A stretch of 64,000 bases of DNA from Candidatus Latescibacterota bacterium (GTDB lineage Bacteria > JAAXHH01). Both the position numbers and the translations under genes were made by a program. Location: contig JAJEHX010000029.1 in the NCBI GenBank assembly GCA_022823465.1, positions 7,852-71,851 of the forward strand, read 5' to 3'. Every line of letters starts with the position of its first letter. The first letter of the stretch is position 1. Under the pieces are notes generated by a model. That model ran no database searches, was not told the DNA's origin, and saw nothing but the letters and a program-made list of their open reading frames with translations. This document shows, in pieces, positions 528 through 58,736 of the stretch.

Positions 528-551
528 TTGACTTGTTGTATTGCTACATTA

Positions 552-28554: not shown

Positions 28555-28561
28555 AGAAAGC

Positions 28562-28660
28562 GGCGATGCCTGACTACTAGCGGCGATGTCTTATAAATGT
28601 GGCGATGCCTGACTAATAGCGGCGGTGCCTTATAAATGGGGCGATGCCTGATTCGTGCGG
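28562..28660. repeat. 2.5 tandem copies of a ~39-bp repeat (GGCGATGCCTGACTAMTAGCGGCGRTGYCTTATAAATGK) between convergent genes
   Basis: Units at 28562, 28601 and 28640 (partial). Each unit contains an internal GGCGATG duplication ~20 bp apart. Confidence 0.7.
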
Positions 28661-35191: not shown

Positions 35192-35264
35192 GGCTATGTT
35201 AAGGCTATGTTAAGGCTATAGTACAGACTATTTAACAAGGCTATTGTACAAAAAACTGTTTAAG
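35192..35264. repeat. Tandem 11-13-bp direct repeats (GGCTATGTTAA x2, GGCTATAGTAC, AGACTATTTAACAA, GGCTATTGTACAA) in the ADOP3/lexA divergent region
   Basis: Read directly at 35193, 35204, 35215, 35226 and 35239. Confidence 0.55.
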
Positions 35265-35422: not shown

Positions 35423-35601
35423 TTATGGACTTTAAGACGCTCGTTTGACGCGCCTCGACACGTTTGGCATGCTGATTGTTTAACGCGCAGAATCGTTTGG
35501 AGCGCCGTCTTGGTGCGTCGATCCGTTACATCGGCTCGTCGCGTCGGTCCATTTCGCCGGCCCATCGCGTCGGCTCTTTTCACCGTCCCTGGGAGACCAT
35601 C

Positions 35602-36216
35602 ATGGCCTACACATCGCCTGGAGAGACCAGAGAGAAGATCTACGGTTTCGTGCGGGACCGGATCATGAACGGGACCTCGCCCACGACCCGCGAAGTGCAG
35701 CGCGCCTTCGGGTTCCGGGCGGTCCAGTCGGCCCGGCAGCACCTGGAGAAGCTGGTGCTCGAGGGGAAGCTCGCCAAGGTGGACGGCAGGTCCAGGGGCT
35801 ACCGTCTTCCGGAGTTCGGCAAGGCCAGTCCGCCCCAACTGGTCCCCATGCTGGGGCGCGTCCAGGCGGGCGAGTTGACCGAGGCCATGGAGAACCCGCC
35901 GGAATACATCATGGCGCAGACGCGCTTCGAGGACGGCGAACTCTTCGCGCTGACCGTGGAGGGGGAGAGCATGCTCTACGCCGGTATCCTGCCGGGGGAC
36001 ATGGTGATCGTGCGCCGGCAGCCGACGGCCAGTCCGGGAGATATCGTGGTGGCGCTGGTGGGCGAGGAAGCCACGGTGAAGCGGTACCGTGAGCGGGACG
36101 GGCGCGTCGAACTGCATCCGGAGAACGATGCTTTCAGCCCGATCATTCCCCGTGAGGATGGCGCGCCCTTTTCGCTCCTGGGCAAGGTCATCGAGGTGAG
36201 ACGGAGCGTGGACTAA
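35602..36216 (+). CDS. lexA: LexA repressor (S24 peptidase)
   Basis: Winged HTH (GTSPTTREVQRAFGFRAVQSARQHLEKLVLEGKL), cleavage-site region, and S24 domain with GESM...GILPGDMVIVRR...KRY. The true start is MAYTSPGETREKIYGF (35602), not the upstream ATG of the listed ORF. Confidence 0.9.
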   Translation: MAYTSPGETREKIYGFVRDRIMNGTSPTTREVQRAFGFRAVQSARQHLEKLVLEGKLAKVDGRSRGYRLPEFGKASPPQLVPMLGRVQAGELTEAMENPPEYIMAQTRFEDGELFALTVEGESMLYAGILPGDMVIVRRQPTASPGDIVVALVGEEATVKRYRERDGRVELHPENDAFSPIIPREDGAPFSLLGKVIEVRRSVD

Positions 36217-36300
36217 ACTCATGCCGGCTAAGGAGTACCGGATAGACGCGCCGGGCAAGAAACGCCGGGCAGCATCATCGGGACAACCGAAGGAGAAGCC

Positions 36301-36936
36301 ATGTCGGCCCCGCAGGACCGGGATCCGCAGGATCTCGAACCCTACTTCACGCGGATGCCCGCCGGAGACCGGAAGGCGCAGCCGCGCTGGTCGCGGACGC
36401 AACTGGCCGGACGCCTTTGCGAACTCTCGTCTGTCCCCGGGACCGCCCTGCTGACTGCCGCTTTCCGGCTGGTGCTGGACGCGCAGCTCGAGGGCGAGCC
36501 GGCGGCCTGGATCACGGCGACGCCGGATACCTTCTTCGCGCCGGACGCGGCGGAGAGCGGCGTGGACCTGGACGCCCTGGCGGTCATCCGCGTCCCGGGC
36601 GCCGGCGCCGTGGCGCGCGCGGCGGACCGGGTCCTGCGATCGGGCGGCTTCGGCCTGGTTGTGATGGACCTGTACGCCGATTCCAGGATCCCCGTTCCGC
36701 TGCAGGTGCGCCTGGCCCGGCAGGCGCGGGACCACCATGCCGCCCTCCTGTGCCTGACCGCCAAGTCCCGGGAGGCGCCTTCGCTGGGACCGATGGTTTC
36801 CCTGAGAGGCCAGACTTCCAGCCGCCGCCTGGCGGTCGACCGTTTTCAATACGAAATCGAAATACTGAAGGACAGACGTCATGGACCGGGCTGGCGCCAC
36901 ACCGAAATCTGCCGGGGGCCGGACGGCCTGCATTAA
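36301..36936 (+). CDS. imuA: ImuA (SulA/RecA-like inactive ATPase of the mutasome cassette)
   Basis: 211 aa in the canonical position between lexA and imuB; RecA-like core remnants (LVLDAQLEGEPAAWITATPDTFF...LRSGGFGLVVMDL). Confidence 0.75.
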   Translation: MSAPQDRDPQDLEPYFTRMPAGDRKAQPRWSRTQLAGRLCELSSVPGTALLTAAFRLVLDAQLEGEPAAWITATPDTFFAPDAAESGVDLDALAVIRVPGAGAVARAADRVLRSGGFGLVVMDLYADSRIPVPLQVRLARQARDHHAALLCLTAKSREAPSLGPMVSLRGQTSSRRLAVDRFQYEIEILKDRRHGPGWRHTEICRGPDGLH

Positions 36937-38371
36937 CATCCGGGCGCTGCCGCTGCAGCTTCTGCTGAGGAGCCATCCGGAGTGGCGGGAAAGGCCGGTG
37001 GCGGTGGTGGAAGAAGAAAAACCCCTGAGCCCCGTGCTGTGGCTCAACGCCGCGGCCGTCCGGAACGGGATCCGGCCGGGCCTGCGATACGCCGCGGCCC
37101 TTTCCCTGGACCGCGACCTGTGCGCCGGGACGGTTTCGGAGGAGGAACTCCGGGCTGCGGTCCGGCAGGTCCACGGGGAACTGGGCCGCTTCAGTCCCCG
37201 GGTGGAGCCGTGCGGAGACGAGCCGGGCGTCTTCTGGGTGGACGCGGGTGGCCTGGGCTGGCTCTACGAGTCGTTCGCGGACTGGGCCGGACAGATGCAC
37301 GCCTGCCTTTCCCGGCTGGAACTCTCGGCGAGCATCGCGGTCGGCTTCGGCCGTTTCGGCACGTATGCCATCGCCAGGGCGAAGGACGCGGTGACCGTAC
37401 TCCCCTCCGTGGAAGTCGAGGAGGCCGAAAGCCGCGAGGTGCGGCTGCTTGATCTGCAGCTCGATCCAAAGCTCCGGGAACGCCTGGACAAGCTGGCCGT
37501 GTATACCGTGGGGGACTTCCTGGCACTCCCCGGGGAGCGTATCGCCCGGCATCTCGGCGAGCAGGCCAGGGAACTCTACCGCTTTGCGGCGGATGAACGG
37601 CCCACGCCGCTTCAGCCCCTGGCGCTTCCCGAACCCCTCCGCGCCCGGATGGAACTGGACGAAAACGAAACTGACGCCCGGAGCCTGCTGTTCCGGGTAT
37701 CTCAGCTCCTGGCGCCCCTGCTGAAGGCCGCCGCCGGAAGATGCCAGGCGGCTGCGGCGCTCCGGCTTCAATTCCGCCAGGAGGACGGGGCGCGGCGCCG
37801 CTTTCGCATCCAGGCGGCAGAGCCGACGCTGGCCGCGCCGGTCCTGCTGGAACTGGCCGGCCTGCACCTGGAAACGGTCTCCTTCCCCTTCCCCCCGGTG
37901 GCGTTGTCCCTCGAGGTGGAGGGCGTAGGCGTCACCGCCGAGAAACTGAACCTGTTGCAGGAGAACCCGAACCGCGATACCGGGTCGGCTATGCGCGCCC
38001 TGGCGCGGGTCCGGGCCGAGTTCGGACCCGATTCGGTGCTCACGGCCCGGCTCAGACCGGGGCATCTGCCGGAGGCCCGCTTCGCGTGGCATCCCTTCGG
38101 CAAGCTCGCCGAGGCCAGCCCCCGGCCGGTCGCGGTGCGCTCCCTGGTGCGGCGCGCCCATGCCAGTCCCCGCGTCCTGGAAGGCCTGCCCGTGAACTGG
38201 CCGTCGCCGCCGGCCCCGGGTCCGCCCCCGGAACACCTGGTCAGCGGTGGATGGTGGGTCCGGGAGGTCCGAAGGGATTACCGCTTCATCGACACCGGCC
38301 GGGGAGAAACTCTCTGGGTCTATTACGACCACCGGAGAGCCCGCTGGTACGTGCAGGGACGGGTCGAATGA
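36881..38371 (+). CDS. imuB: ImuB (Y-family polymerase-like, non-catalytic)
   Basis: 496 aa. UmuC/DinP-like N-terminal region ([12 protein letters not shown]...[29 protein letters not shown]). The stop overlaps the dnaE2 start (ATGA). Confidence 0.8.
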
Positions 38372-41300
38372 CGGCCGGGATCCAGGCCTACGCGCCCATC
38401 TGGTGCAAGAGCAACTACTCCTTCCTGGAAGGGGCCAGCCATCCCGAGGAACTGGTGGAAGCCTGCCGGCGCCTGGGCATTCGGTCCCTGGCCCTTACCG
38501 ACCGCAACGGGGTGTACGGCATCGTCCGTGCACACGTCCGCGCCCGGGAACTGGACGTCCACCTGATCGTGGGATCGCAGGTCAGTCTCCAGGACGGTTC
38601 GGAGGTCCTGCTGCTGGTACAGAACCGGGAAGGCTATGCCCGGCTATGCCGGCTGCTGACCGCCGGACACCTGCGCGCCTCCAAGGGGAACTGCAGGGTG
38701 AGCTGGGAGGAAGTGTGCCGCTACAGCCCCGGCCTGATCGCCCTGTGGATCGGCGGGCCCGAGGCTGATCTTGAGGCTGCTTCCGGGGGTGTAGCTCCGA
38801 TCCGCCCGGGTCCTCCCGCCCCCGATCCCGTCCTGGAACAACTCCGCACAGCCTTCGAAGACCGCCTGTACGTGGTCCTGGCCCGGCACCTCCGGGCGGA
38901 GGAAGCCCTGAAGGAGATCCGCCTCCGGGAGATGGCGGACCGGTTCGGGCTGCCCACCGTTGCCGCCGTGGAGGTGCTCTACCACGCGCCCGAAAGGCGG
39001 CGGCTGCAGGACGTGCTGACCTGCATCCGGGAGGGCGTGACGCTGCCCGCGGCCGGGCGCCTTATCCGGTCGAACGACCAGCACGCCCTGAAGGGACCGG
39101 AAGACATGGCGCGGCTCTTCCGCGATGACCCGGCATCCCTCGATCGGACCCGTGAGGTGGCCGACCGCTGCACCTTCGCCCTCGGGGAACTGCGCTACCG
39201 CTACCCGCTGGAGCGCCTGCCGAAGGGCAAGACGTCCATCCAGTACCTGGAAGAGCGCACCTTCGCGGGCGCGGAACGCCGCCTGGGCGACAAGCTCGCG
39301 TCGCAACTGGCTCCCCAGTTGAAGAAAGAACTCGCGCTGATCCGGGAACTGGAGTACGAGGGCTATTTTCTGACCATGCACGAAATCGTGGAATACTGCC
39401 GCCGCGAGCACATCTTCTGCCAGGGCCGCGGGTCGGCGGCCAACTCCGCCGTCTGCTTTTCCCTGGGCATCACCAGCGTGGACCCCACCCAGGTGGACCT
39501 CCTCTTCGAGCGTTTCCTGTCGAGAGAAAGGGCCGAGCCGCCGGACATCGACCTGGACATCGAGCACAACCGCCGGGAAGAGGTGATCCGGCACGTGTAT
39601 CAGAAATACGGGCGCACCCACGCCGCCATGGTGGCCAACGTCGTCCGCTACCGCTACCGGTCCGCCATCCGGGAGGTGGGCAAGGTACTGGAGATACCGG
39701 CGACCAGCCTGGACCGTCTGGCCAAGCTGATAGCGCACGAACGCTGGGACGGGGCCTTCATCCGGCGGGCCGGTCTCGACCCGGAGAACCCGGCCCTGCG
39801 CCACCTGAACGCCCTGGTGCGCGAGATCCAGGATTTCCCCCGCCATCTCTCCATCCATCCCGGGGGGTTCATGCTGGGCCATTATCCCGTCCACGACCTG
39901 GTGCCCATCGAAAACGCCACCATGGAAGGACGAACCGTGATCCAGTGGGACAAGGAGGACGTGGAGGACGCGGGGCTCTTCAAGGTGGACCTCCTCGGCC
40001 TGGGCGCCCTCAACATGCTGCACCTCGCTTTCGACCTCCTGCGGCGGCACCGCGGGACGGACCTCTCCCTGGCCGATCTCCCCCGGGAGGACGCCGCCAC
40101 CTTCGACCTGATCTGCCGCAGCGACACGGTGGGCGTGTTCCAGATCGAGAGCCGGGCCCAGATGGCCATGCTGGGACGCCTGAAGCCGCGCACCTACTAC
40201 GACCTGGTGATCGAGATCAGCATCGTCCGTCCCGGGCCCATCACGGGCGGCATGGTCCATCCCTACCTGCGGCGGCGCAACGGCGTGGAGGAAGTCACCT
40301 ATCCCCACAAATGCCTCGAGCCTGTCCTGGAAAAAACCCTGGGCGTGCCCCTCTTTCAGGAGCAGGTGATGCAACTGGCCATGGTGGCGGCGGACTACAC
40401 CCCCGGCGAGGCCGACCAACTCCGGCGGGACATGGCCGCCTGGCGGCGTTCGGGACGGATAGACCGGCACCGGGAACGGCTGGTCTCGCGCATGATGCGA
40501 AAGGGCATTAAGCAGGAATTCGCCGAACGCGTCTTCCAGCAGATCCGGGGGTTCGGCGAGTACGGCTTCCCGGAAAGCCACGCCGCCAGCTTCGCCCACA
40601 TCGCCTACGCCACCGCCTACCTGCGGTGCCACTACCCGGCGGAGTTCAACTGCGCCCTGCTGAATGCCCAGCCCATGGGGTTCTACTCGCCCGCCACCAT
40701 CGTCAACGACGCCCGGATACACGGGGTGGAGGTGCGGTCGGTGAGCATACGCCACAGCCGTTGGGACTGCACTCTGGAAGAGATTGAAGCGGAAGACGCG
40801 GGCGATCGCGTCCGGTTCGCGGTGCGCATGGGACTGCGTTACGTCCGGGGATTGAGTGAGGGAGATTGGGAGAAACTGGCACAGACCATGGAGCAGGCCC
40901 CCTTCCGGGACCTTCCGGACGTCGCCCGTCGGGCCGGACTCCACGAGGACAAGCTGGAGTCCCTGGCCGAGGCGGGCGCCTTCGCGTGTTTCGGCCTGGA
41001 CCGCCGCCGCGCCCTCTGGCAGGTCCTCGGTACCAAACCCCGGCAGCCGCCCGCGCTGTCGCTCGACAGCCACGCTTCCTCGCCCCGGTTTCCCTCCCTG
41101 AGCAATCTCGAGACTATCGTCTGGGATCATCAGGTCAGCGACCACAGCGTCCTGGGCCACCTCCTGGAACCGTTGCGTCCCGGTCTGGCCGCCCAGGGGC
41201 TGCCTGCGGCGCGGGATCTCAACGGGATGCCGGACGGCAGCCTGGTCCATTACGTGGGCATGGTCATCTGCCGTCAGCGCCCCGGGACCGCCCAGGGCGT

Positions 41301-41520
41301 CACCTTCATGACGCTGGAGGACGAAACGGGGTTCGTGAACCTGGTCATCTGGGAGAAAGTATTCGAGTCCTATTCCTCGCTGGTCAGAACACTTCCCTGC
41401 TTAGGCGTGACCGGAAACCTGCAGGTGGGGGAGGGTGTGGTCCACCTCGTGGCCGAGGCGGTCTGGGACCCGAGGCTGGAGGACGGGTCGTTGCGTCTCA
41501 AGAGCCGGGATTTTCATTAG
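38368..41520 (+). CDS. dnaE2: Error-prone DNA polymerase III alpha-like subunit DnaE2 (ImuC)
   Basis: 1050 aa starting [51 protein letters not shown] (PHP domain). Pol III alpha core motifs ([28 protein letters not shown] fold). The listed ORF 37741.. carries an artefactual N-terminal extension; the ATG at 38368 overlaps the imuB stop. Confidence 0.9.
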
Positions 41521-41611
41521 ACTTGCAATCAGACGATATATAATTTACAATTGGACGGCATCAAAACTTGCAATCAGACGACATTATAACTTGCAATCAG
41601 ACGCATACAGT
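41521..41611. repeat. Left array: four direct ~23-bp-period repeats (ACTTGCAATCAGACG core), starting one nt after the dnaE2 stop
   Basis: Units at 41521 (ACTTGCAATCAGACG), 41544 (TTTACAATTGGACGG), 41566 (ACTTGCAATCAGACG) and 41589 (ACTTGCAATCAGACG); 15-nt core plus ~8-nt variable segment. Confidence 0.8.
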
Positions 41612-41707
41612 TTAAATTGTTATAAACGTCCAGGTTTATTGTGACTGAACGAACCCATCAAAACATATTTAACAAGAAAACACATACCTTGGAAGTGCTT
41701 TAAGCCG

Positions 41708-43054
41708 ATGAAAACCGAATCCGGACTTTATCCACGATACGCCGAACATCCCCTGAAAGAGGCGCTCTCCGATTCGCCGGCCGTCCTGATCCACGGTCCG
41801 CGCCAGTGTGGCAAGACCACCTTGGCCAGAATGGCCTATCCGTCCCGATACGCGCAATGGGACGACGGCTTGGTAGCGCAGGACGACGGCTCGGTAGCGC
41901 AATGGGACAATGGAGATCGGGTGGAATGGAGTAACGCTAACTACATCACCTTCGATGATGACGTGGCTCGTAACGCAGCCGAAAGCGATCCGATTGGATT
42001 CGTTAACGATTTGCCTGACAGGGTTATTCTGGATGAGGTTCAGCGGACGCCTTCCATTTTCACCGCGCTGAAGATGGCGATAGACCGTGACCGGAAACCC
42101 GGCCGTTTTCTGTTAACGGGATCCTCCCAGGTACTTCTGGTACCGAAAGTGTCGGATTCCCTCGCCGGACGAGTGGAGATAATAAGACTGCACCCACTGG
42201 CTCAGTGCGAACTGTCGGGTCGGCGTCCTGTTTTTCTTGACCGCTTGTTCTCTGGTGATTTCAAAGGCCCTCAACTGCCCCGATCGTCGGACCGACTGGT
42301 TGATCGTATCGTCGCCGGAGGCTTTCCGGCCGCACTGGCGCGTTCAACCGAGGGGCGAAGACGCAATTGGTACGTCAGCTACGTGGAAACCCAACTTCAA
42401 AGGGATGTGCGTGACATCGCCCATATAAGCGATCATGAGGTCATGACCCGTCTGCTCGGTATCGCTGCGACTCAAACGGCACGGTTATACAACCTACTGG
42501 ACATGTCCGCAACCTTCAGCCTCAGTCGCCCGACGATTGGCAAATACGTAGAGATTCTTGAAAGAATCTTTCTTGTGGAGCGACTCCCGGCATGGCAGAA
42601 CAACCGCTTGAAGAGATCAGTCAAGGCGCCGAAACTGCACGTCTGTGATACAGGTATTGGATGCGCCATGATCGGCGCGAACAGCGATTCGCTCAAGAAA
42701 GACCGCGATCTGCTGGGACAGTATCTTGAGTCATTCGTGTTTCAAGAGTTGAAACGACAGTCCAGCTGGTATGGCGATCCGTTGACATTTTTCCACTATC
42801 GGGACAAGGACAAGGTTGAGGTGGACCTCGTTATCGAAAAGGGATCTATTGCCGTGGCTGGTGTGGAAGTGAAAGCATCCAGTACCGTGCGAGCGTCTGA
42901 TTTTCGTGGATTACGCAAACTCATGAACGCGGCCGGTGACCGGTTCGCTGGCGGAATAGTGCTTTACGACGGCGAGATGTGTTGGAGTTTCGGAGACGGA
43001 TTGACAGCCGTACCCATCAGAATGCTGTGGGAAGCATCAGAAGAAGCGGTATGA
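41708..43054 (+). CDS. AAA+ ATPase, COG1373/DUF4143 family
   Basis: Walker A AVLIHGPRQCGKTT; Walker B RVILDEVQR; DUF4143-type C-terminal domain. Contains an in-frame 21-nt tandem duplication (LVAQDDGSVAQWD). Bracketed by matching repeat arrays. Confidence 0.8.
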   Translation: MKTESGLYPRYAEHPLKEALSDSPAVLIHGPRQCGKTTLARMAYPSRYAQWDDGLVAQDDGSVAQWDNGDRVEWSNANYITFDDDVARNAAESDPIGFVNDLPDRVILDEVQRTPSIFTALKMAIDRDRKPGRFLLTGSSQVLLVPKVSDSLAGRVEIIRLHPLAQCELSGRRPVFLDRLFSGDFKGPQLPRSSDRLVDRIVAGGFPAALARSTEGRRRNWYVSYVETQLQRDVRDIAHISDHEVMTRLLGIAATQTARLYNLLDMSATFSLSRPTIGKYVEILERIFLVERLPAWQNNRLKRSVKAPKLHVCDTGIGCAMIGANSDSLKKDRDLLGQYLESFVFQELKRQSSWYGDPLTFFHYRDKDKVEVDLVIEKGSIAVAGVEVKASSTVRASDFRGLRKLMNAAGDRFAGGIVLYDGEMCWSFGDGLTAVPIRMLWEASEEAV

Positions 43055-43182
43055 ATTCAAGTGTTGGAAAGGATAAACTTGAGTCGATTCCTTAACGTTG
43101 AAGCATTAAAAACACACGCTTGTACACCGATTGGGCCGCCTGTCGCCCGTTGATCGTAAATCTTCTGCCAGGCCCCACGATA

Positions 43183-43290
43183 TCTTGCAATTGGCCGCAC
43201 CACTAACTTGCAATCAGCCGCTTTTCAGACTTGCAATTGGACGGTATCAAGACTTGCAATCAGCCGTTACCGAGACTTTCACTTGGCCGG
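43183..43290. repeat. Right array: five direct repeats at exact 23-bp spacing (ACTTGCAATCAGCCG / ACTTGCAATTGGACGG core), same orientation as the left array
   Basis: Units at 43183, 43206, 43229, 43252 and 43275. The last unit overlaps the 3' end of the tfoX-like ORF. Confidence 0.8.
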
Positions 43291-43605
43291 CAGGGATGCA
43301 GCGTAGGCCGCGGCACGGTCCACCCAGTCCTGCAGATCTTGCTCTGATGCAATGCCCGGCGGTTCCACCAGCGCCCATCCCTTCATGGTCCGTCCCGCGA
43401 TGTCGGCAGGTTTCGTGTGCGGTTCCGCCAGCGTCTCGTCGTGTTGCATGCGGTCCAGCCGCACGATGAGCGAGCCTTTCCAGGTCCCCGCACACATATT
43501 GCCGTTGATCATGAAACAGACGCCGCCGAACATGTTTCGCTCGGAGTATCCGTTACGCTTCGAAAGAATGGAACGAATCCGACCGGCTAACGCGTCATTG
43601 CTCAT
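43279..43605 (-). CDS. TfoX/Sxy N-terminal-domain protein
   Basis: ...GYSERNMFGGVCFMINGNMCAGTWKGSLIVRLD... matches the TfoX_N signature (MFGG..lyl.Gkmfa). Confidence 0.6.
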   Translation of the reverse strand: MSNDALAGRIRSILSKRNGYSERNMFGGVCFMINGNMCAGTWKGSLIVRLDRMQHDETLAEPHTKPADIAGRTMKGWALVEPPGIASEQDLQDWVDRAAAYAASLPAK

Positions 43606-43822
43606 CCTGACCTGTGCTTTCCCTCTTCGATAAGATCAAATGGTATCGAGTGCGTATCAGCGCTTGAAGCCCCGTCCTCGTAATGACCGGACTGCTGTTC
43701 CCGCTCATTCCGTCTTCCCGTGTCGTCATGTATAGGGACGCCCATAGTTTCGAGTGCCGATCGACACGGCTCTCCCGCTCATCCCATTGTCCCGTTTCGC
43801 CAGGTGTTGGGGGTCGAGACGA

Positions 43823-44287
43823 TCAGGGCAATACGAACTCGTGCTCCGGATGCTTTACGGTCAATACCGGGCAGGGCGCCATCTGAACGACCTTCTCAGC
43901 CACGCTCCCGATCAGGGCGTGGGTGATCCCCGTCCTTCCGTGGGTAGCCAGAACGATCAGGTCCACGTCGTGGTTCTTGGCATAGCGGATGATGGACACG
44001 TGCGCGACGTCCGTGTCCACCGCGGTGCGGACCTCGAGACCTTCGATTTCGCCGCGGATCGTTTCCAGCCGGGATCTCACGTCCAACTCGTACTGGGATT
44101 GCATCTCCGAAGCCGAGGATACAACCGGCAGATCGACGCCCGCCGCACTCATCCACGGCAGATCGAACACGTGGAGCAGATGCAGTTTCGCCCCGTATGC
44201 CGAGGCAAACTCGCGGGCGTAATCGAGCGCGTATCCGGCATAGTCCGACAGGTCGGTCGGCACGAGGATGTTGTTGATTCTGATCAT
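43823..44287 (-). CDS. Universal stress protein (UspA family)
   Basis: ILVPTDLSDYAGYALDYAREFA...HLLHV...DLIVLATHGRTGITHALIGSVAEKVVQMAPCPVLTV. Confidence 0.8.
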   Translation of the reverse strand: MIRINNILVPTDLSDYAGYALDYAREFASAYGAKLHLLHVFDLPWMSAAGVDLPVVSSASEMQSQYELDVRSRLETIRGEIEGLEVRTAVDTDVAHVSIIRYAKNHDVDLIVLATHGRTGITHALIGSVAEKVVQMAPCPVLTVKHPEHEFVLP

Positions 44288-53619: not shown

Positions 53620-56025
53620 TCAGCCCTGCCTCAGCGCGTTAACCGGGTTCCTGCCTGCGGCGGCCAGCGCGTGCGCCCCGATCGTCAGCCAGGCGATGGC
53701 CAGGGCGACGATGCCTCCCGCTATAAACCACACGAAGTTGATTCCCGCCGCATAGGCATAGTTCTGCAGCCATTGCGCCATGGCGTAGTACGCCAACGGC
53801 CAGGCGATCGCATTGGCCAGCAGGACATACTTCATGAAGTCCTTCGAGAGCAGCAGGACGATGTCCGAAACGGCGGCGCCGAGTACCTTGCGGATTCCAA
53901 TCTCCCTGGTCCGCTGCTGGATCGAGAAGGAAGCCAGGCCAAGGAGACCCAGGCACGCCACGAAGATCGCGAGAAAGGCGAATACCGCGAAGACCGTACC
54001 CAGTTGTCGTTCGGCGCGGTAAAGGCTGTCAAAATCCTCGTCCAGAAACGTGTATGCCAGGGGATAGACGGAATCGACTTCCCGCCACGCCTCCTGAATC
54101 CGGGCGATGGTATCCGACAGGTTCTCCGGCCCGATTCGAATGAGTATGTCACTGAAGTCGTAGGGATAGTGTATGAAGACGATCGGTTCGATTTCCTCAT
54201 GAATCGATTGCAGGTGGAAATCCTCCATGACCCCCCGGACGCGTCCTTTCGTACCGCGGTACTCGATCCATTCCACGAGCATGCCGATCGCGTCGGGCGG
54301 AGCTTCCCAGCCCAGTTTACGGGCGGCGGTCTCGTTCAGTAGGATTACCATGGTGGTATCCCTGGCCAACTCGACCGGAAAGTTCCGGCCTGCCGCGAGG
54401 CCGATTTCCATGACCTCCAGGAACTGGTCATCTGAAGAGAACACGGACACGATCAGGTTGTCCTCGGGGCTCATCTCATCGGAACGGACGGCCATAATCC
54501 GCGGTGATTGTTCGCCCGGGACACCGTCGGTCGTCGCCATGCCGACCACGCCCGGCATTTGTGCGAGGCGTAGTCTCAGCAATTGGGTGCTTTCACGCTG
54601 AACCGCGCCGGTAATCGGGATCACCATGACATGCTCCTTGTTGAAACCGAGCCGCACGTCCTGGATGTACTCGAGCTGGTCGTAGATGACGGCGGTGCTG
54701 ACCAGCAGAAAGATGGACATAGAGAACTGGATCACCACCAGGGACCGCCGCAATCCCATACCTTCCGTACCTGACTTCAAACTCCCTTTCAGTACTTCGG
54801 TGGGCAGGAAACCCGACAGGTACACCGCGGGATAGCTTCCAGCCGCCACTGCAATCGCGAGCGTTCCCGCCGCGAGCGCTCCCAGCACCCAGCCTTCCGA
54901 TAGGGCAAAGTCCAGTTGCTTGCCAGCCAGTACGTTCACGCCGGGCAGGGCGAGTTGTACAAGCGCGACCGCGACGATCATGGCAAGTCCCGCCATGAGG
55001 ATGGCCTCACCCAGGAACTGCCCCAGCAATTGGGACCGGTTGGCCCCCATCACTTTACGCACACCCACCTCTCTGGCGCGCATGGCGGACCGTGCCGTGG
55101 CCAGGTTCACGAAGTTGATGCACGCGATGAGGGGAATCAGGAACGCGATAACCAGGAAGAGCACCACGTAGCGGAAATCCCCGTTGGGCTCGAGCTCGCT
55201 GTCCCGGTGCGAATGCAGATGAATGTCCACCAGAGGCTGCAGAGACGGTCTCAACACTTTGCTCGAATCGCGGAACCTGCCTGTTTTGTTTCGTTCCACG
55301 AAGGCGGGCAGTTGCGCTTCCAGGTCTTCCGGAGCGGCATTTTCATGTAGTCTGATGTAGGTATAACGGTTTTCGTGAAATTCCCAATCATCCAGGCTAT
55401 CCGGATAAAGGGCGTTCCTTGTTACAAGAGACAGGATCATATCCGGCCGCAAATGCGAATTGGCCGGGATGTTCCGCATGACGCCGGTCACCATAAAGTC
55501 CCAGACGTTGTCCCCTCTGAGGACCTTCCCCATGGGGTCCTCGCCGCCGAAGTACTTGAAGGCCATATCCTCCGAAATCACGATCGAATACGGTTCGGTC
55601 AGCGCGGTACGGGGATTGCCTGCGACAAGCGGAATGGAAAACATGTCCAGCAGAGCCGCATCCGCCCAGATGACCTTTTTCTCATAGTATCGTTTTTCTT
55701 CATGCATGATGAACCAGACTGAAGTCGTGCCTCGCACCCGGGCGAACAGCTCGATTTCAGGGAAATCCCGCTTAAGGGCGGGTCCCCATCCCGATGGCGA
55801 TCCCGCCGTCTGGACCGTCTGCCCGGCACTTTCTATATCATCGACGATCCGGTAAACCCGGTCGGCATGGGGATGATACCGATCGTAGCTCAACTCGTCC
55901 CAGACGTAGCGCAGGATCAGCATGCAGGCCGCCAGGCCGATCGCGAGCCCCGCGATGTTGATGAGCGTGTAGGCGGGATACCTGAGCAGGCTGCGTGTGG
56001 CTATGGTGAGGTAGTTTTGGAGCAT
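53620..56025 (-). CDS. ADOP-type orphan ABC permease, paralog 4
   Basis: 801 aa (MLQNYLTIATRSLLRYPAYTLINIAGLAIGLA...) with duplicated FtsX domains (...ATARSAMRAREVGVRKVMGA..., ...SIQQRTREIGIRKVLGAA...). Confidence 0.85.
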   Translation of the reverse strand: MLQNYLTIATRSLLRYPAYTLINIAGLAIGLAACMLILRYVWDELSYDRYHPHADRVYRIVDDIESAGQTVQTAGSPSGWGPALKRDFPEIELFARVRGTTSVWFIMHEEKRYYEKKVIWADAALLDMFSIPLVAGNPRTALTEPYSIVISEDMAFKYFGGEDPMGKVLRGDNVWDFMVTGVMRNIPANSHLRPDMILSLVTRNALYPDSLDDWEFHENRYTYIRLHENAAPEDLEAQLPAFVERNKTGRFRDSSKVLRPSLQPLVDIHLHSHRDSELEPNGDFRYVVLFLVIAFLIPLIACINFVNLATARSAMRAREVGVRKVMGANRSQLLGQFLGEAILMAGLAMIVAVALVQLALPGVNVLAGKQLDFALSEGWVLGALAAGTLAIAVAAGSYPAVYLSGFLPTEVLKGSLKSGTEGMGLRRSLVVIQFSMSIFLLVSTAVIYDQLEYIQDVRLGFNKEHVMVIPITGAVQRESTQLLRLRLAQMPGVVGMATTDGVPGEQSPRIMAVRSDEMSPEDNLIVSVFSSDDQFLEVMEIGLAAGRNFPVELARDTTMVILLNETAARKLGWEAPPDAIGMLVEWIEYRGTKGRVRGVMEDFHLQSIHEEIEPIVFIHYPYDFSDILIRIGPENLSDTIARIQEAWREVDSVYPLAYTFLDEDFDSLYRAERQLGTVFAVFAFLAIFVACLGLLGLASFSIQQRTREIGIRKVLGAAVSDIVLLLSKDFMKYVLLANAIAWPLAYYAMAQWLQNYAYAAGINFVWFIAGGIVALAIAWLTIGAHALAAAGRNPVNALRQG

Positions 56026-56216
56026 GATTGTCCTGGTATAGGAGGCCAGGTGCTGACCCGGAATGTAACGTGTTTATCATCGAATATACACCTTTTCCAT
56101 GGGTCAGTCGATTCAGTATCTTACGGTCAGTCGATTCAGTATCTTAGTCTAATTTGAAAATCCCTTGGGAAATTACTCGGCCACGAGTCTGACGATTGGA
56201 ATCCCGGTAAACAACG

Positions 56217-58736
56217 ATGCCCGACCCCACGACCAACACATCGCGACAGGTCTCGATCCCTGTTCTCCGCCATGAAAGACCCCGGTTGTTCAGGCCGGTA
56301 GACGATCCGGGTTTCGAGTACAAGCCACCGGCCGATCCAGTGCGACGGCGCATCCTCTCCAACCTGCTGGACGATTGTGAACTGTATGCAGGTCAGCGGC
56401 CGTGGAGGTGGGTCCCTAGACGGACACACAGCCCACACCCCAACCACCAGCTTTACCTGACCTTCTACACCGCCATGCAGGCCACGGCCCTGATCGAGAA
56501 TTACGCCTTCGCCTGGCGGCTTACGGGCGACCCGCGCTGGCTTGACCGAGCTCGCGCATGGCTCAGGACCGCGGCGGTTTGGGACCACGGCGACCACGTG
56601 GAGGAGCACTTTTACACGGCCAACCGTTACATGCACGCTTTCGCGCTTGCCCTCGACCTGATGGACGAGGTACTGTCCGATGTCGAGAAGCGCCATGTCC
56701 GAGAATGTCTCGTGGAGTTGATGGACCGCTGGTGGCCGTACGTGGACGAACGGCGGCACTTAACGGCAGGCGGGCACCACACCGTCGTCGACTATGGGCA
56801 CTTCGGGGTGGCCGCGGTGCACCTGCTGGGTGAGCACCCCCGGGCGGAGGCATGGCTGCAGGCGGTTATCGATCGCTTCCGGAGCGGCGTCCTGCCCCAC
56901 GGCTGCGGTCCCGGCGGCGAGCCCGTGGACGGCCCTACTTTCTGGGCTTTTGAAAACCTCTGGCTCCTGCATTTTGCCGATGCGCTACGCAATGTTACCG
57001 GCATCGACCTGATGAGCGAGGTACCGGACCGGTTTCGTCGCCCGCTAAAATGGTTCCGCGCCCACTGGACGGCGCCTCGCGAGATCCCCGATCAGCTCTA
57101 CTATCCCGTAAATGCCAACATCGTGCTCGGCGGCCAGCTCAATAACAGTTCGCCGGTACTTCTGAGGCTGGCCCAGGAGGCCGGAGACGGAAGGCTGCGC
57201 GACGTGGCGCTTTCCGATCCCCGCCTGGGCAGGCTGTATCGCTTCGGAATGGGCGTCAAAGGTTCGACGGCGGAGTGTATGATATCCTACGGGCCATACG
57301 CTTATTGCTACTATGATCCCGCTTTCCGCCCGTCCAGGACGCGGCGCGTGACTTCGCTGGCGGGTCGTTTCAGTATGTACACGGGTGGTTTCGCCGTGAT
57401 GCGCAGCAATCACGAGCCCGATGCGGCAATCATGTGCGTCAGCGGGTTCGACGGCGGCCTGGCCGCCAATTTCATGAGCCTGCACGTCCAGTGGGCGGGC
57501 AGTCCGCTGCTCCGCACGATCAGTGCCTTCGAGGCCCAGCCGGTGACTTGCGGCAGCCTGCCCTGCGTGGGCGGCCAGAACGAGACCGTCGCCGTGCTGG
57601 GCGGGCTGAAGCGCACGGAGGACTGGCAGCGGCTGCGTGTCTCCTCCCGGCGAACCGAGCACGAATACTGGATCTCTCGCGGGGAGCATCCGGTTCTGCT
57701 CGTGGCGGTGAGGCGCCGGCCGCGCGGCGTGTGCGTCATTAAGGACGGCGGTTCGCTGATCCAGTTGCGTGGCGGCGACGTCCTGCAGTACGAAGCAAAA
57801 CCCTGGTTCCGTGCCAACGGAGGACGCCTGCGTCTTCGCTTCCGGTTGCGGGGACAGGCAAGCGGGCCCCGGGTGCTGTTCAACGCCGGGAACGGTGTTG
57901 GCGGGCATTGCGGGACGGGGGTCAATACATTCGCCCTCTTCGCCGATACGGACGGCCACCTGAATTTCAGTGTACAGAGCCAGAACAGCAACCTGGTTAC
58001 CGTGCAAGCGCCGGGTCCGGTAGATGTCGGAACCTGGCACGACGTTCAAATCGCCTGGGGTGGCTTCAACCGCCGCGGTGACAGGCCATGGATGGAGATT
58101 GCCTTGGATGGCAAGTCCAGTCGTCAGGACGACCCTGCGGTCTTCGGCGAGATGGGACGGGACACGCAGGGTCTCGCTTCACGGATCGAACCGAGGACGT
58201 TCTACGTCAGGCCCAATACGGCCCTGGCCTTCGGCGGATCGGTACAGACGCCCGGGGTCTCCGCGGATTGCGATCTGTCCCTTATCGAACTAAGTTGTCC
58301 GGGCCGACGGGAGTTAACCATAGATCCAGCAAGTGGGATAGGTCCTGAAACGGGGAGCGGTGAATTGGCCTACAAGCTGAATCCGGTGGATCTGCGCGGC
58401 CTGGAAGAGGACCGCGCCCGTCTTGGCGCCGGATCGCGCGTTGTGGAGGTGATTTCGGTGTTCGGAAAAGGACTTCAGTGGCGAACGGAGGAGGTGCCCT
58501 ATGCGCCTTCAGGACTTGCCGCCGGAAGCCTGGTCAGCTTCCTTCCGAATGCTACCGCCGCATCAACGCGGCTGGTGGCGGGTACGGACGACGACGTCCT
58601 GGTCCTTGCCTTCTGCAGCAGTTCGGCGAAGGCTCGGGTCAACCGTGAGGACGACCGGTTCAGTTTGAGCGCGGGCGAGCGGGAGTATTCATTTGAGGTT
58701 TCGCGGGGGAGGGGTGCGATACTGCTTCAGACTTGA
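56217..58736 (+). CDS. Heparinase II/III-like (alginate-lyase-like alpha/alpha toroid) polysaccharide lyase family protein with a C-terminal concanavalin/laminin-G-like domain
   Basis: 839 aa. The N-terminal alpha-toroid region (WRLTGDPRWLDRARAWLRTAAVWDH...) is followed by a beta-rich region (GTWHDVQIAWGGFN...). Family call is by overall architecture; moderate certainty. Confidence 0.5.
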   Translation: MPDPTTNTSRQVSIPVLRHERPRLFRPVDDPGFEYKPPADPVRRRILSNLLDDCELYAGQRPWRWVPRRTHSPHPNHQLYLTFYTAMQATALIENYAFAWRLTGDPRWLDRARAWLRTAAVWDHGDHVEEHFYTANRYMHAFALALDLMDEVLSDVEKRHVRECLVELMDRWWPYVDERRHLTAGGHHTVVDYGHFGVAAVHLLGEHPRAEAWLQAVIDRFRSGVLPHGCGPGGEPVDGPTFWAFENLWLLHFADALRNVTGIDLMSEVPDRFRRPLKWFRAHWTAPREIPDQLYYPVNANIVLGGQLNNSSPVLLRLAQEAGDGRLRDVALSDPRLGRLYRFGMGVKGSTAECMISYGPYAYCYYDPAFRPSRTRRVTSLAGRFSMYTGGFAVMRSNHEPDAAIMCVSGFDGGLAANFMSLHVQWAGSPLLRTISAFEAQPVTCGSLPCVGGQNETVAVLGGLKRTEDWQRLRVSSRRTEHEYWISRGEHPVLLVAVRRRPRGVCVIKDGGSLIQLRGGDVLQYEAKPWFRANGGRLRLRFRLRGQASGPRVLFNAGNGVGGHCGTGVNTFALFADTDGHLNFSVQSQNSNLVTVQAPGPVDVGTWHDVQIAWGGFNRRGDRPWMEIALDGKSSRQDDPAVFGEMGRDTQGLASRIEPRTFYVRPNTALAFGGSVQTPGVSADCDLSLIELSCPGRRELTIDPASGIGPETGSGELAYKLNPVDLRGLEEDRARLGAGSRVVEVISVFGKGLQWRTEEVPYAPSGLAAGSLVSFLPNATAASTRLVAGTDDDVLVLAFCSSSAKARVNREDDRFSLSAGEREYSFEVSRGRGAILLQT

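What the first reader, a model, noticed from the sequence alone, without database searches (positions are those of the whole stretch)
41521..43290. Same-orientation 23-bp-period repeat arrays exactly bracket a COG1373/DUF4143 ATPase gene inserted between dnaE2 and tfoX
The first nucleotide after the dnaE2 stop begins an array of four ~23-bp units (ACTTGCAATCAGACG core, one TTTACAATTGGACGG variant). About 90 bp later the ATPase gene starts. After its stop, a second array of five units sits at an exact 23-bp register (43183, 43206, 43229, 43252, 43275) with the same core in the same orientation, running into the 3' end of the tfoX-like gene. Each unit is a 15-nt conserved core plus ~8 variable nt. 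This is too short for CRISPR, and the direct orientation rules out inverted transposon ends. Candidates are iteron/centromere-like protein-binding arrays, a cassette-type insertion footprint, or regulator arrays controlling the ATPase. COG1373 ATPases are frequent in defence/TA neighbourhoods but have no assigned function.
Basis: seen in the sequence. Interest (0 to 1): 0.7.

Follow-up and report, generated by a model that had tools for sequence, protein, structure and literature searches.

The report
Promoter-operator repeat arrays of a defence-candidate ATPase
The 23-bp repeats are real and are the conserved signature control region found upstream of one clade of a very common but uncharacterised candidate anti-phage ATPase-nuclease gene (PDC-S01); the second, downstream copy is a rare duplicate that lets the gene be deleted by recombination, as has happened in the closest relative.

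Summary
There are 4 units at 41521-41603 and 5 units at 43183-43289, with a 23-bp period, the same orientation and the core CTTGCAATYRGMCG. They bracket an AAA_14/DUF4143 gene between dnaE2 and tfoX.

The motif is not a generic repeat. A scan of 185,579 species genomes found 94 loci against about 4 expected by chance. At least 69 of them carry this ATPase, or fragments of it, directly downstream of the array on the same strand.

The converse also holds. Of 80 loci chosen only by the protein, 79 show the array just upstream of the start codon; the other has only 20 nt of upstream sequence.

In typical members the last two units form a sigma-70-like promoter (-35 TTGCAA, -10 TACAAT). It places the transcription start at the ATG, which implies a leaderless mRNA. 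Unit positions that RNA polymerase does not read are still conserved.

No other gene is conserved nearby. More distant clades carry different repeats or palindromes at the same place. I therefore infer self-binding by the protein's winged helix, giving autoregulation.

Downstream arrays are rare, seen in 3-4 lineages. The closest relative (L004) has dnaE2, one solo array and tfoX but no ATPase, most simply explained by deletion through inter-array recombination.

The ATPase matches PADLOC candidate PDC-S01, which is untested. I found no description of this cis-element.

The parts
38368..41520 (+). dnaE2 (error-prone DNA polymerase III alpha). It is the last gene of a lexA (35476-36216), imuA-like (36301-36936), imuB (36881-38371), dnaE2 cassette. 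This is flanking context, not part of the module.
   Evidence: Pfam. The start coordinate comes from the gene call on the identical scaffold L097. The stop codon TAG is at 41518-41520.
41521..41603 (+). Array 1: four head-to-tail units (ACTTGCAATCAGACG, ATTTACAATTGGACG, ACTTGCAATCAGACG, ACTTGCAATCAGACG), each followed by 7-8 variable nt. It is the cognate upstream promoter/operator array of the ATPase gene.
   Evidence: The same kind of array lies upstream of homologues in at least 140 loci.
41523..41551 (+). Candidate promoter a: -35 TTGCAA (41523-41528), 17-nt spacer, -10 TACAAT (41546-41551), formed by units 1 and 2. An alternative, candidate b, is -35 TTGCAA (41591-41596), 16 nt, TAAATT (41613-41618), formed by unit 4 and a degenerate fifth unit.
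   Evidence: Candidate a is the only sigma-70-like hit on the + strand in 41300-43700, but its TAC variant is not conserved in L009, L024 or L066. Candidate b was read from the sequence and is conserved in L009. Neither is proven.
41604..41707 (+). AT-rich 104-nt spacer or leader peculiar to the window lineage. It ends in a degenerate unit, AGTGCTTTAAGCCG (41694-41707), that abuts the ATG. This looks like a relic of the family-typical arrangement, in which the last unit touches the start codon.
   Evidence: There is no Rfam match and no conserved RNA structure.
41708..43054 (+). ATPase-nuclease gene of 448 aa. Domains: AAA+ (AAA_14, aa 23-169, Walker A GPRQCGKT, Walker B ILDEVQ), lid helices, winged helix (aa 243-312, recognition helix RPTIGKYVEILER) and a PD-(D/E)XK nuclease (DUF4143, with D366, E371-x-D373 and E387-x-K389). 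It matches the PADLOC candidate defence gene PDC-S01.
   Evidence: Pfam. PADLOC PDC-S01, E = 3e-157. Invariant residues. AlphaFold model with pLDDT 82.7. Foldseek.
41852..41908 (+). In-frame 21-nt tandem repeat inside the ATPase gene. It encodes W-D-D-G-type heptads and forms a lineage-variable, predicted-disordered insertion (aa 47-75) between the Walker A helix and the next strand.
   Evidence: TRF, alignment, and pLDDT below 50 for residues 47-75.
43055..43182 (+). 3' spacer between the ATPase stop codon and array 2. It is conserved in L009 and absent in L066, where array 2 starts 6 nt after the stop.
43183..43289 (+). Array 2: five units (TCTTGCAATTGGCCG, ACTTGCAATCAGCCG, ACTTGCAATTGGACG, ACTTGCAATCAGCCG, ACTTTCACTTGGCCG) in the same orientation. 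It is a downstream duplicate of the operator array and has no TAC-type (-10) unit. It is the recombination partner for deletion of the gene.
   Evidence: Its units erode in L009 and L066. The L004 solo array carries array-2-type spacers GTATCAAG and CTGCTCAG.
43279..43605 (-). TfoX_N-domain gene (108 aa), convergent with the ATPase. Its last three codons and stop codon lie inside the last unit of array 2. This is flanking context.
   Evidence: Pfam and sequence.

Best explanation
The repeats are the cognate cis-regulatory array of a single-gene module. That gene encodes an AAA+ ATPase, winged-helix and PD-(D/E)XK nuclease protein of the PADLOC candidate-defence family PDC-S01.

Shown:
- In this ATPase clade an array of 14-nt cores (consensus CTTGCAATYRGMCG) at a 23-bp period always lies directly upstream of the gene on the same strand.
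- This holds in at least ten phyla and on plasmids of cultured bacteria.

Inferred from sequence statistics:
- In typical members the last two units are a sigma-70-type promoter. The penultimate unit supplies -35 TTGCAA. The last unit is specifically changed to TTACAAT, which supplies -10 TACAAT.
- The last unit ends 0-2 nt before the ATG, so the mRNA would be leaderless.

Inferred from elimination and co-variation:
- Every unit is also a binding site for the encoded protein's own winged helix.
- Head-to-tail AAA+ oligomers would assemble on the direct repeats, cover the -35 and -10 elements and the start site, and autoregulate (most likely repress) a potentially toxic nuclease.

The window lineage is atypical in two ways:
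1. A 104-nt AT-rich leader separates array 1 from the ATG.
2. A second copy of the array lies downstream. Array 2 is a duplicate under weaker constraint. Because it is a direct repeat of array 1, recombination between the two excises the gene and leaves a solo array. That is the state of the closest relative, L004.
For: Specificity of the motif:
- The two-unit pattern gave 94 genome loci against about 4 expected.
- Of these, 58 have a full-length ATPase homologue (46-88% identity) starting 0-120 nt downstream on the same strand. Five more are cut by the locus end. Six to eight have ATPase fragments.

The converse test:
- Of 80 metagenome loci selected only by protein (54-60% identity to the window protein, median 71% to each other), 79 show motif or variant-motif units in register just upstream. 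The remaining one (L110) has only 20 nt of upstream sequence.
- Arrays have mostly 3-4 units.
- The period is 23 nt in 173 cases and 22 nt in 15.

Promoter geometry:
- The gap from the last unit to the start codon is 0-2 nt in 66 of 76 loci, and the start codon is ATG in 68 of 76.
- Unit position 4 is A in 54 of 62 last units, against 7 of 124 in the two units upstream. It is G in 39 of 62 at unit -1 and T in 52 of 62 at unit -2. Fisher p = 3e-30, not corrected for phylogeny.
- This gives TACAAT or TACGAT at -12 to -7 relative to the A of ATG, and TTGCAA 18 nt upstream.

More than a promoter:
- G12, C14 and G15 of the core stay conserved (information 1.2-1.8 bits) in all three proximal units, including the unit at about -55.

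No other partner:
- No neighbouring gene family is shared by more than 8 of 148 loci.

Cis-element class tracks protein clade:
- Homologues at 43-47% identity on plasmids keep 23-bp arrays with altered cores. These are Salipiger CTTTCAATCGGTCG, Agrobacterium TTTAAATTGGACG, Marinobacter ATTGGACG and Spartinivicinus AGTCAATTAGACG.
- Clades at 27-39% identity have perfect palindromes abutting the ATG instead, and a different recognition-helix N-terminus.

Protein structure:
- The model (pLDDT 82.7) shows AAA+, winged-helix and nuclease domains.
- The best structural matches are archaeal AAA+/winged-helix ATPases, clamp-loader subunits and DNA-bound Orc1/Cdc6.

Deletion in L004:
- L004 is the closest relative (dnaE2 92-94% nucleotide identity).
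- The ATPase-bearing relatives are more distant: 88% for L009, 80-88.5% for L066 and 84% for L024.
- L004 has dnaE2 stop, 4 units, then the tfoX end, with array-2-type spacers.
- About 20 further solo arrays exist elsewhere, most lacking the TAC unit.
- Downstream arrays of the locus's own motif variant are seen in L060, L028 and L182.
Against: - No binding, transcription-start or expression data exist. Self-binding is inferred by elimination and analogy.
- The test of protein residues against motif variants within the clade gave only diffuse, phylogeny-confounded signal.
- TTGCAA-18-TACAAT is a sub-optimal promoter, and the hosts span phyla with different sigma preferences.
- In the window lineage itself the family-typical geometry is broken. 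There is a 104-nt leader. The unit abutting the ATG is degenerate. The one scanner-detected promoter (units 1-2) is not conserved in L009, L024 or L066. How this particular copy is transcribed is therefore unclear.
- Array 2 in the window has four perfect cores, which could mean it is functional rather than a relic.
- Solo arrays stay well conserved across species (L085/L088/L092 and L036/L064). A pure relic model does not predict this.
Confidence: 0.6

Rival explanations
1. The array is only a slippage-amplified promoter. Because the -35-like and -10-like elements resemble each other and lie 23 bp apart, the promoter core duplicates in tandem. No dedicated DNA-binding protein reads the units.
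For: The last two units fit a -35/-10 pair at the right distance from the ATG. Some arrays are runs of identical units including their spacers, which points to recent slippage: L029 has 9, L044 has 6 and L015 has 12.
Against: Core positions 9-14 (YRGMCG) are outside what sigma-70 reads in the distal units. They are still conserved across phyla and in the unit at about -55. The three proximal units are differentiated in a fixed order, TTT / TTG / TTA. More distant clades replace the array with perfect palindromes, which are typical operator sites.
Confidence: 0.13
2. The arrays are recombination (att-like) sites of an excisable or self-mobilising cassette. The AAA+ nuclease acts on its own arrays. 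Array-gene-array is the integrated form, solo arrays are empty sites or footprints, and a circular gene-plus-array form is the intermediate.
For: Occupied (window, L009, L066) and empty (L004) states exist at one site. About 20 solo arrays exist, most lacking the promoter-type unit, as recombination between flanking arrays would produce. Bracketing with the locus's own motif variant arose in 3-4 lineages. Homology between L036 and L064 breaks exactly at the array end. The protein carries a conserved nuclease active site.
Against: Only 1 of 66 protein-selected loci is bracketed. Identical proteins were always found in the same genomic context. L004 is nested among occupied relatives, so ordinary homologous deletion is enough to explain it. 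Array 2 erodes in L009 and L066. There are no target duplications, no defined right end and no transposase or integrase.
Confidence: 0.1
3. The arrays are a parking or sensing platform rather than a transcriptional operator. The nuclease-ATPase is held inactive on chromosomal repeats and is released or activated on infection. The downstream array adds capacity or forms a loop.
For: The evidence for self-binding is the same as in the best explanation. Unit number is variable and sometimes large, up to 12. Solo arrays are conserved across species without a gene in cis.
Against: The strict placement of the last unit on the -10 element and start codon points to transcriptional control. Typical arrays have only 3-4 units. 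Nothing here tests sequestration.
Confidence: 0.07
4. The arrays are iterons or a centromere of an integrated plasmid-like replicon, or binding sites of a host transcription factor such as TfoX or LexA.
For: Direct repeats of 17-23 bp at about two helical turns are typical of iterons (background knowledge). In the window an AT-rich stretch follows array 1.
Against: There is no Rep, Par or relaxase gene. The locus sits in a 519-kb scaffold with conserved chromosomal synteny. There is no GC-skew switch at the locus. The AT-rich leader is specific to the window lineage. The neighbours dnaE2 and tfoX are absent from all other loci, while the array always follows the ATPase. The hosts span phyla, so a host factor is unlikely.
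Confidence: 0.04

Closest known systems
PDC-S01 (PADLOC phage-defence candidate; Pfam AAA_14 + DUF4143; COG1373)
   Same: The window protein matches the PDC-S01 model at E = 3e-157. It has both Pfam domains and the conserved Walker and PD-(D/E)XK residues. It is a stand-alone single gene in variable contexts, sometimes next to TIR or transposase genes and on conjugative plasmids.
   Different: PDC-S01 is known only as a computational candidate with no tested function (PMC12988326, bioRxiv 10.1101/2024.01.29.577857). No cis-element is described in the papers I could search. The repeat array and the leaderless-promoter arrangement are additions made here.
parC/ParR of plasmid R1 and parC1/parC2 of pB171 (from my own knowledge, not tested here)
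   Same: Arrays of short direct repeats overlap the promoter of the operon whose product binds them cooperatively, giving autorepression. In pB171 two such arrays bracket the genes.
   Different: Those repeats are 6-11 bp. They are bound by small RHH or HTH adaptor proteins working with ParM or ParA, and they serve plasmid segregation. Here there is no par gene, the units are 14 nt at a 23-bp period, and the candidate binder is an AAA+ nuclease.
Iteron plasmids (RepA/RepE/Pi: iterons plus an inverted-repeat operator at the rep promoter; from my own knowledge)
   Same: Direct repeats of about 19-22 bp spaced two helical turns apart lie next to the gene of a winged-helix protein that binds them. 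Different family members use direct repeats or inverted repeats at their own promoter, as seen here across PDC-S01 clades.
   Different: There is no Rep-family protein, no origin features and no autonomous replicon.
Orc1/Cdc6 with ORB elements, DnaA with DnaA boxes, MalT with MalT boxes (AAA+/STAND ATPases with a DNA-binding domain that assemble on repeated sites; from my own knowledge, plus fold matches)
   Same: The model shows an AAA+ module followed by a winged helix. Foldseek matches include DNA-bound Orc1/Cdc6 (2qby) and MalT (8bob). Repeated cognate sites lie next to the protein's own gene. Head-to-tail AAA+ assembly fits direct repeats.
   Different: There is no origin or regulon function, a PD-(D/E)XK nuclease is fused at the C-terminus, and sequence similarity is limited to the P-loop.

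Membership tests
PDC-S01 / AAA_14-DUF4143 (COG1373) ATPase-nuclease | N-terminal AAA_14 P-loop domain with Walker A and Walker B motifs | tested here: met
   PF13173, E = 4.7e-24. GPRQCGKT and ILDEVQ are invariant in 119 homologues.
PDC-S01 / AAA_14-DUF4143 (COG1373) ATPase-nuclease | C-terminal DUF4143 PD-(D/E)XK domain with catalytic acidic and lysine residues | tested here: met
   PF13635, E = 4.7e-43. D366, E371, D373, E387 and K389 are invariant. Foldseek matches to the Can2 and Card1 nuclease domains. Listed in the PD-(D/E)XK superfamily in PMC3424549.
PDC-S01 / AAA_14-DUF4143 (COG1373) ATPase-nuclease | Match to the PADLOC PDC-S01 profile | tested here: met
   PDLC04790, E = 3.2e-157, plus six further PDC-S01 models.
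PDC-S01 / AAA_14-DUF4143 (COG1373) ATPase-nuclease | Anti-phage activity | not testable with these tools
   The family itself is unvalidated.
Autoregulatory operator or promoter array bound by the product of the adjacent gene | Repeats overlap the promoter of the adjacent gene | tested here: met
   This is met for typical family members. The last two units give -35 TTGCAA and -10 TACAAT, 0-2 nt before the ATG. For the window copy itself the promoter position is ambiguous.
Autoregulatory operator or promoter array bound by the product of the adjacent gene | The gene product has a DNA-binding domain, and the cis-element co-varies with the protein | tested here: inconclusive
   A winged helix is predicted with confidence. 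The class of cis-element changes with protein clade. Co-variation within the clade is diffuse.
Autoregulatory operator or promoter array bound by the product of the adjacent gene | Demonstrated binding and regulation | not testable with these tools
   This needs gel-shift or footprint assays, reporter fusions and transcription-start mapping.
Iteron-type replication origin | Rep-family initiator gene next to the repeats, together with a DNA-unwinding element, DnaA boxes and autonomous replication | tested here: not met
   There is no Rep domain. The context is a conserved chromosomal one on a 519-kb scaffold. The AT-rich stretch is found only in the window lineage. There is no skew switch.
Plasmid partition centromere (parC/parS-type) | Adjacent ParA/ParM NTPase and centromere-binding adaptor genes | tested here: not met
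   There is no such gene in the window locus or as a conserved neighbour in 148 loci.
CRISPR array | Repeats of at least about 23 nt separated by unique spacers of similar length, with cas genes or a leader | tested here: not met
   The units are a 15-nt core plus 8 nt at a 23-nt period. There are 2-12 units, always abutting the ATPase start.
Transposon ends with multiple transposase-binding repeats (Tn7/Mu-like) | Repeats in inverted orientation at the two ends, target-site duplication, a transposase gene, and copies in different contexts | tested here: not met
   The two arrays have the same orientation. Most loci have one array only. There is no transposase. Identical proteins are always in the same context.

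The most novel reading that the evidence does not exclude
The array-flanked ATPase-nuclease is a self-excising, re-integrating gene cassette. The AAA+ winged-helix nuclease assembles on its own 23-bp repeat arrays and promotes recombination between them. Array-gene-array would be the integrated form. The roughly 20 solo arrays found in other genomes would be empty landing pads or footprints. If so, part of the very abundant PDC-S01 family would be a new kind of mobile element rather than, or as well as, a defence gene.
Probability: 0.1. Interest if true: 0.85.

Novelty: new variant of a known kind. Interest (0 to 1): 0.6.

Why it matters
PDC-S01 (AAA_14-DUF4143) is reported as the fourth most common defence candidate in prokaryotes, with about 39,000 copies in surveyed genomes (PMC12988326). 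Here it has 20,040 cluster representatives at E <= 1e-3. Nothing is known about how it works.

A cis-element conserved across phyla, always attached to one clade of the family, gives a concrete and testable handle:
- a predicted DNA-recognition sequence for its winged helix;
- a predicted self-contained promoter with a leaderless mRNA, which would work in many hosts;
- a simple assay (array binding and autoregulation) in cultured carriers: Agrobacterium tumefaciens pAt, Salipiger profundus pTPRO7 and Marinobacter nauticus pMAQU02.

The element also explains presence/absence polymorphism of the gene, since direct arrays promote clean deletion. It further provides a sequence tag (solo arrays) that records past carriage of the gene.

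Tried and rejected
- CRISPR, inverted transposon ends, integron attC: rejected on geometry.
- Structured RNA: no Rfam match in 41000-44000. No conserved RNA structure in the 104-nt leader of the four lineage members.
- Phage origin of the motif: the viral-contig scan gave one chance-like hit with no ATPase. Only 5 viral contigs encode relatives.
- GC drop as evidence of insertion: the whole 42-52 kb region is at 0.52-0.57 GC. The high-GC outlier is imuB-dnaE2.
- Conserved partner gene, such as a small regulator: none found in 148 loci.
- Mutual information between motif variants and protein columns: diffuse and phylogeny-confounded. One suggestive column lies in the recognition helix (residue 278).
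- First AlphaFold run with 18 sequences: too poor to use (pLDDT 59). I replaced it with a 119-sequence run.
- PDB sequence search: only P-loop matches. NCBIfam: no match.
- Recent mobility: identical proteins P0100 and P0020 always sit in the same context.
- Intrinsic terminator between the ATPase and tfoX: none found.
Full report
**1.

Reading the sequence, Tandem Repeats Finder, a mismatch-tolerant motif search and the repeat finder all agree.
- Array 1 has four units with cores at 41521, 41543, 41566 and 41589. It begins at the base after the dnaE2 stop codon.
- Array 2 has five units at 43183, 43206, 43229, 43252 and 43275, in exact 23-nt register on the same strand.
- The last unit of array 2 overlaps the stop codon and last three codons of the convergent TfoX_N gene (43279-43605, minus strand).
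- The degenerate core has six exact matches in the window, all in the arrays. No copy with two or fewer mismatches lies elsewhere in the 64 kb.
- Pfam confirms the genes: imuB (IMS), dnaE2, AAA_14 + DUF4143 (41708-43054) and TfoX_N.
- The identical locus lies on a 519-kb metagenome scaffold, downstream of lexA, an imuA-like gene, imuB and dnaE2.

**2. The motif belongs to the ATPase, not to the genome**

I scanned one genome per species (185,579 species) for two adjacent units, CTTGCAAT-NNGNCG-N9-CTTGCAAT. About 4 chance hits are expected from 19 specified bases. The scan gave 94 loci.

The loci come from Chloroflexota, Acidobacteriota, Binatia, Gemmatimonadota, Latescibacterota, Myxococcota, Proteobacteria, Bacteroidota, Ignavibacteria, Verrucomicrobia and Actinomycetota.

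| Class of locus | Number |
|---|---|
| Full-length ATPase homologue downstream, same strand (46-88% identity) | 58 |
| ATPase present but cut by the locus end | 5 |
| ATPase fragments only | 6-8 |
| Array with no ATPase (solo array) | about 20 |
| Cannot tell | 3 |
| Chance-like match | 1 |

The full-length homologues start 0-120 nt after the array.

The converse test used 80 metagenome loci picked only by protein similarity.
- They are 54-60% identical to the window protein, with a median of 71% among themselves.
- 79 show motif or variant-motif units in register just upstream of the start codon. The other (L110) has only 20 nt of upstream sequence.
- Arrays have mostly 3-4 units, at a period of 23 nt (173 cases) or 22 nt (15 cases).

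No neighbouring gene family is shared by more than 8 of 148 loci. The array plus the ATPase is therefore a self-contained single-gene module.

**3. Anatomy of the typical array**

I anchored 62 non-redundant protein-selected loci on the last unit and read fixed 23-nt offsets. This shows three differentiated units.

| Unit | Consensus |
|---|---|
| -2 | aac.TTTCaaTtgGcCG |
| -1 | AAccTTgCaATTaGcCG |
| 0 | aaggTTACAATtGGCCG, followed by ATG |

Position 4 of the core differs by unit.

| Unit | Base at core position 4 |
|---|---|
| Last unit (0) | A in 54 of 62 |
| Unit -1 | G in 39 of 62 |
| Unit -2 | T in 52 of 62 |

The Fisher test for A in the last unit against the upstream units gives p = 3e-30. 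This is not corrected for phylogeny.

The last unit ends 0-2 nt before the start codon in 66 of 76 loci. The start codon is ATG in 68 of 76.

By established promoter rules, the -10 element is TATAAT with A at -11 and T at -7 most important, the start site lies 6-8 nt downstream, and the -35 element is TTGACA at 17±1 nt. Applying these rules:
- TACAAT or TACGAT sits at -12 to -7 relative to the A of the ATG.
- TTGCAA lies 18 nt upstream.
- There is no room for a ribosome-binding site.

I therefore infer a sigma-70-type promoter that produces a leaderless mRNA. This suits a gene that moves between phyla. It remains inference, because no transcription data were available.

**4. More than a promoter**

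Core positions G12, C14 and G15 carry 1.2-1.8 bits in all three proximal units. This includes the unit centred near -55, where RNA polymerase makes no base-specific contacts of this kind. Something else must read the 14-mer. The only conserved candidate is the encoded protein.

A 119-sequence AlphaFold model (pLDDT 82.7, pTM 0.86) shows these parts:
- an AAA+ module;
- lid helices;
- a winged helix, with helices at 243-256 and 263-270, the recognition helix at 274-286 (RPTIGKYVEILER) and wing strands at 290-293 and 309-312;
- a PD-(D/E)XK domain with invariant D366, E371, D373, E387 and K389.

The best Foldseek matches are the archaeal AAA+/winged-helix ATPases 2qen and 2fna, clamp-loader subunits, DNA-bound Orc1/Cdc6 (2qby), MalT, and the nuclease domains of Can2 and Card1.

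AAA+ proteins oligomerise head to tail, which fits sites arranged as direct repeats. This is background knowledge.

**5. The cis-element changes with the protein clade**

Plasmid-borne homologues at 43-47% identity in cultured bacteria keep arrays at a 22-23 bp period but with altered cores.

| Host and plasmid | Units | Core |
|---|---|---|
| Salipiger profundus pTPRO7 | 4 | CTTTCAATCGGTCG |
| Agrobacterium tumefaciens pAt | 3 | TTTAAATTGGACG |
| Marinobacter nauticus pMAQU02 | 4 | ATTGGACG |
| Spartinivicinus ruber pB | about 3.9 | AGTCAATTAGACG |

Clades at 27-39% identity instead carry perfect inverted repeats abutting the ATG.

| Source | Inverted repeat |
|---|---|
| Azotobacter | GGTGTAATTTCA / TGAAATTACACC |
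| Moraxella bovis | 20-nt arms |
| Thermus | CTGAATGA / TCATTCAG |
| Paracoccus, L103, L131 second gene | ACCTTGCAA-type half-sites |
| Runella | TTATGTAAT / ATTACATAA |

The N-terminal half of the recognition helix differs between these clades. Within the main clade, a mutual-information test was inconclusive.

Taken together this supports autoregulation by self-binding. It does not prove it.

**6. What is special about the window lineage**

Blastn and alignments give the following picture.
- L009 (about 88% nucleotide identity) and L066 (80-88.5%) share imuB, dnaE2, array, ATPase, array and tfoX. L024 (84%) shares the synteny through the upstream array until its locus ends inside the ATPase, so its downstream side cannot be seen.
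- The arrangement is therefore old in this lineage. The taxonomic labels of these MAGs differ, but the DNA shows they are related.
- In this lineage a 104-nt AT-rich leader separates the last good unit from the ATG.
- A degenerate unit still abuts the ATG.

The only scanner-detected promoter is formed by units 1-2: TTGCAA, 17 nt, TACAAT at 41523-41551. This variant is not conserved in the relatives. An alternative promoter is unit 4 plus a degenerate fifth unit. How this copy is transcribed remains open.

There is no Rfam family and no conserved RNA fold in the leader.

**7. The downstream array and the empty site**

Downstream arrays in the same orientation, and of the locus's own motif variant, occur in:
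- the window lineage;
- L060 and L028, where one downstream unit matches an upstream unit at 22 of 23 positions including the spacer;
- L182, with the variant TTTCGTTTGGACG on both sides.

A stricter test that requires the locus's own cores finds bracketing in only 1 of 66 protein-selected loci.

Array 2 has no TAC-type unit. Its cores are eroding in L009 and L066, while array 1 stays intact.

L004 is the closest relative (dnaE2 92-94% identical). It has the dnaE2 stop codon, four units and then the tfoX end, with no ATPase.
- Its spacers GTATCAAG and CTGCTCAG match array-2 units of the window and of L009.
- Its last unit is the array-2 terminal unit.
- L004 is nested among ATPase-bearing genomes.

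The simplest reading is loss of the gene by recombination between the two direct arrays, leaving a solo array.

Most solo arrays elsewhere lack the TAC unit and the ATG, as this route predicts. Some are conserved across species (L085/L088/L092). In L036 and L064, homology breaks exactly at the array end. A pure relic model does not fully explain that conservation.

**8. Mobility was looked for and not found**
- Identical proteins (P0100, P0020) always occur in the same context.
- The motif is essentially absent from viral contigs.
- There is no transposase, integrase, Rep or Par gene.
- The GC drop after dnaE2 is regional, not specific to the gene.

A protein-driven cassette mechanism stays possible but unlikely, at about 0.1.

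**9. Relation to what is known**
- The protein matches the PADLOC candidate PDC-S01 at E = 3e-157.
- PDC-S01 was proposed from 'guilt by embedding' in BREX, DISARM or type I RM loci (bioRxiv 10.1101/2024.01.29.577857).
- It is reported as the fourth most common defence candidate in prokaryotes but has not been validated experimentally (PMC12988326).
- DUF4143 is listed as a PD-(D/E)XK family of unknown function (PMC3424549).
- Full-text searches for DUF4143, COG1373 and PDC-S01 found no description of a cis-element.
- The family is large, with 20,040 cluster representatives at E <= 1e-3.

In how it would work, the closest analogues are promoter-overlapping repeat arrays bound by their own gene product (R1 parC/ParR; pB171 parC1 and parC2, which also bracket their genes) and AAA+ or winged-helix proteins assembling on repeated boxes next to their own gene (iteron Rep proteins, Orc1/Cdc6, DnaA, MalT). 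These comparisons rest on my own knowledge. Membership in any of those families fails on the defining genes.

**10. Verdict**

The finding is real and specific. It is a new cis-regulatory variant attached to a known but uncharacterised candidate-defence family, and it can be tested directly in cultured carriers.

Noticed in passing
window 4601-4858: Three different short tandem arrays lie back to back in one intergenic region. They are about 4.7 copies of the 19-nt unit TTCACAAAGCGCGTCACGG, about 2.8 copies of the 20-nt unit TTGACGATACGGCGGCAGGA, and 3-4 copies of the 17-nt unit TATAAGCTTCGGCGACG. They lie between a galactarate/altronate-dehydratase-like gene (1776-4475, -) and a DMFA2_C-like gene (4871-6511, +). 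They could be operator arrays or solo relics of other modules.
   Followed up: no
window 28559-28651: Five units of about 19-20 nt alternate between two forms, GCGGCGATGCCTGACTAATA and GCGGCGATGTCTTATAAATG. They lie directly after an Ion_trans channel gene (27664-28554).
   Followed up: no
window 35192-35251: Repeats of 11-13 nt (three GGCTATGTTAA units plus variants) lie about 230 nt upstream of lexA (35476-36216), the first gene of the lexA, imuA-like, imuB, dnaE2 cassette. A possible regulatory site.
   Followed up: no
window 41852-41908 (ATPase aa 47-75): An in-frame 21-nt tandem repeat encodes W-D-D-G-type heptads. It forms an insertion between the Walker A helix and the next strand. It is variable in length in close relatives, is present in a different form in a few other lineages (P0020, P0026, P0103), and is predicted to be disordered.
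   Followed up: partly
L024, about 280 nt upstream of the second ATPase gene (which lies at 27-1031, minus strand): A second, distant AAA_14-type paralogue (23% identity) in the same lineage has its own upstream array of about 18-20-nt units (GCGCCAAAACGG-like). This suggests other clades of the superfamily also carry private repeat arrays.
   Followed up: partly
L191, L195, L196, L197, L198 (plasmids) and L103, L131, L183: Distant PDC-S01 clades (27-39% identity) carry perfect palindromes abutting the start codon instead of direct arrays. L131 and L183 have a second, divergent AAA_14-DUF4143 gene directly downstream of the first, as tandem paralogues.
   Followed up: partly
L085/L088/L092 and L036/L064: Solo arrays without any ATPase are conserved, with intact cores, across different species. 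In L036 and L064 the homology ends exactly at the proximal end of the array. The arrays therefore mark rearrangement breakpoints, or are under some constraint in trans.
   Followed up: partly
window 36000-41500: The imuB-dnaE2 segment is a high-GC outlier (0.68-0.69) against a window mean of about 0.60 and neighbours at 0.52-0.57. The composition step at the dnaE2 stop codon therefore reflects the mutasome genes rather than the ATPase.
   Followed up: partly
window 56102-56146: An exact two-copy tandem repeat of a 23-nt unit (GGTCAGTCGATTCAGTATCTTAC) lies in the intergenic region between 53620-56025 (-) and 56217-58736 (+). It is unrelated in sequence to the ATPase motif.
   Followed up: no
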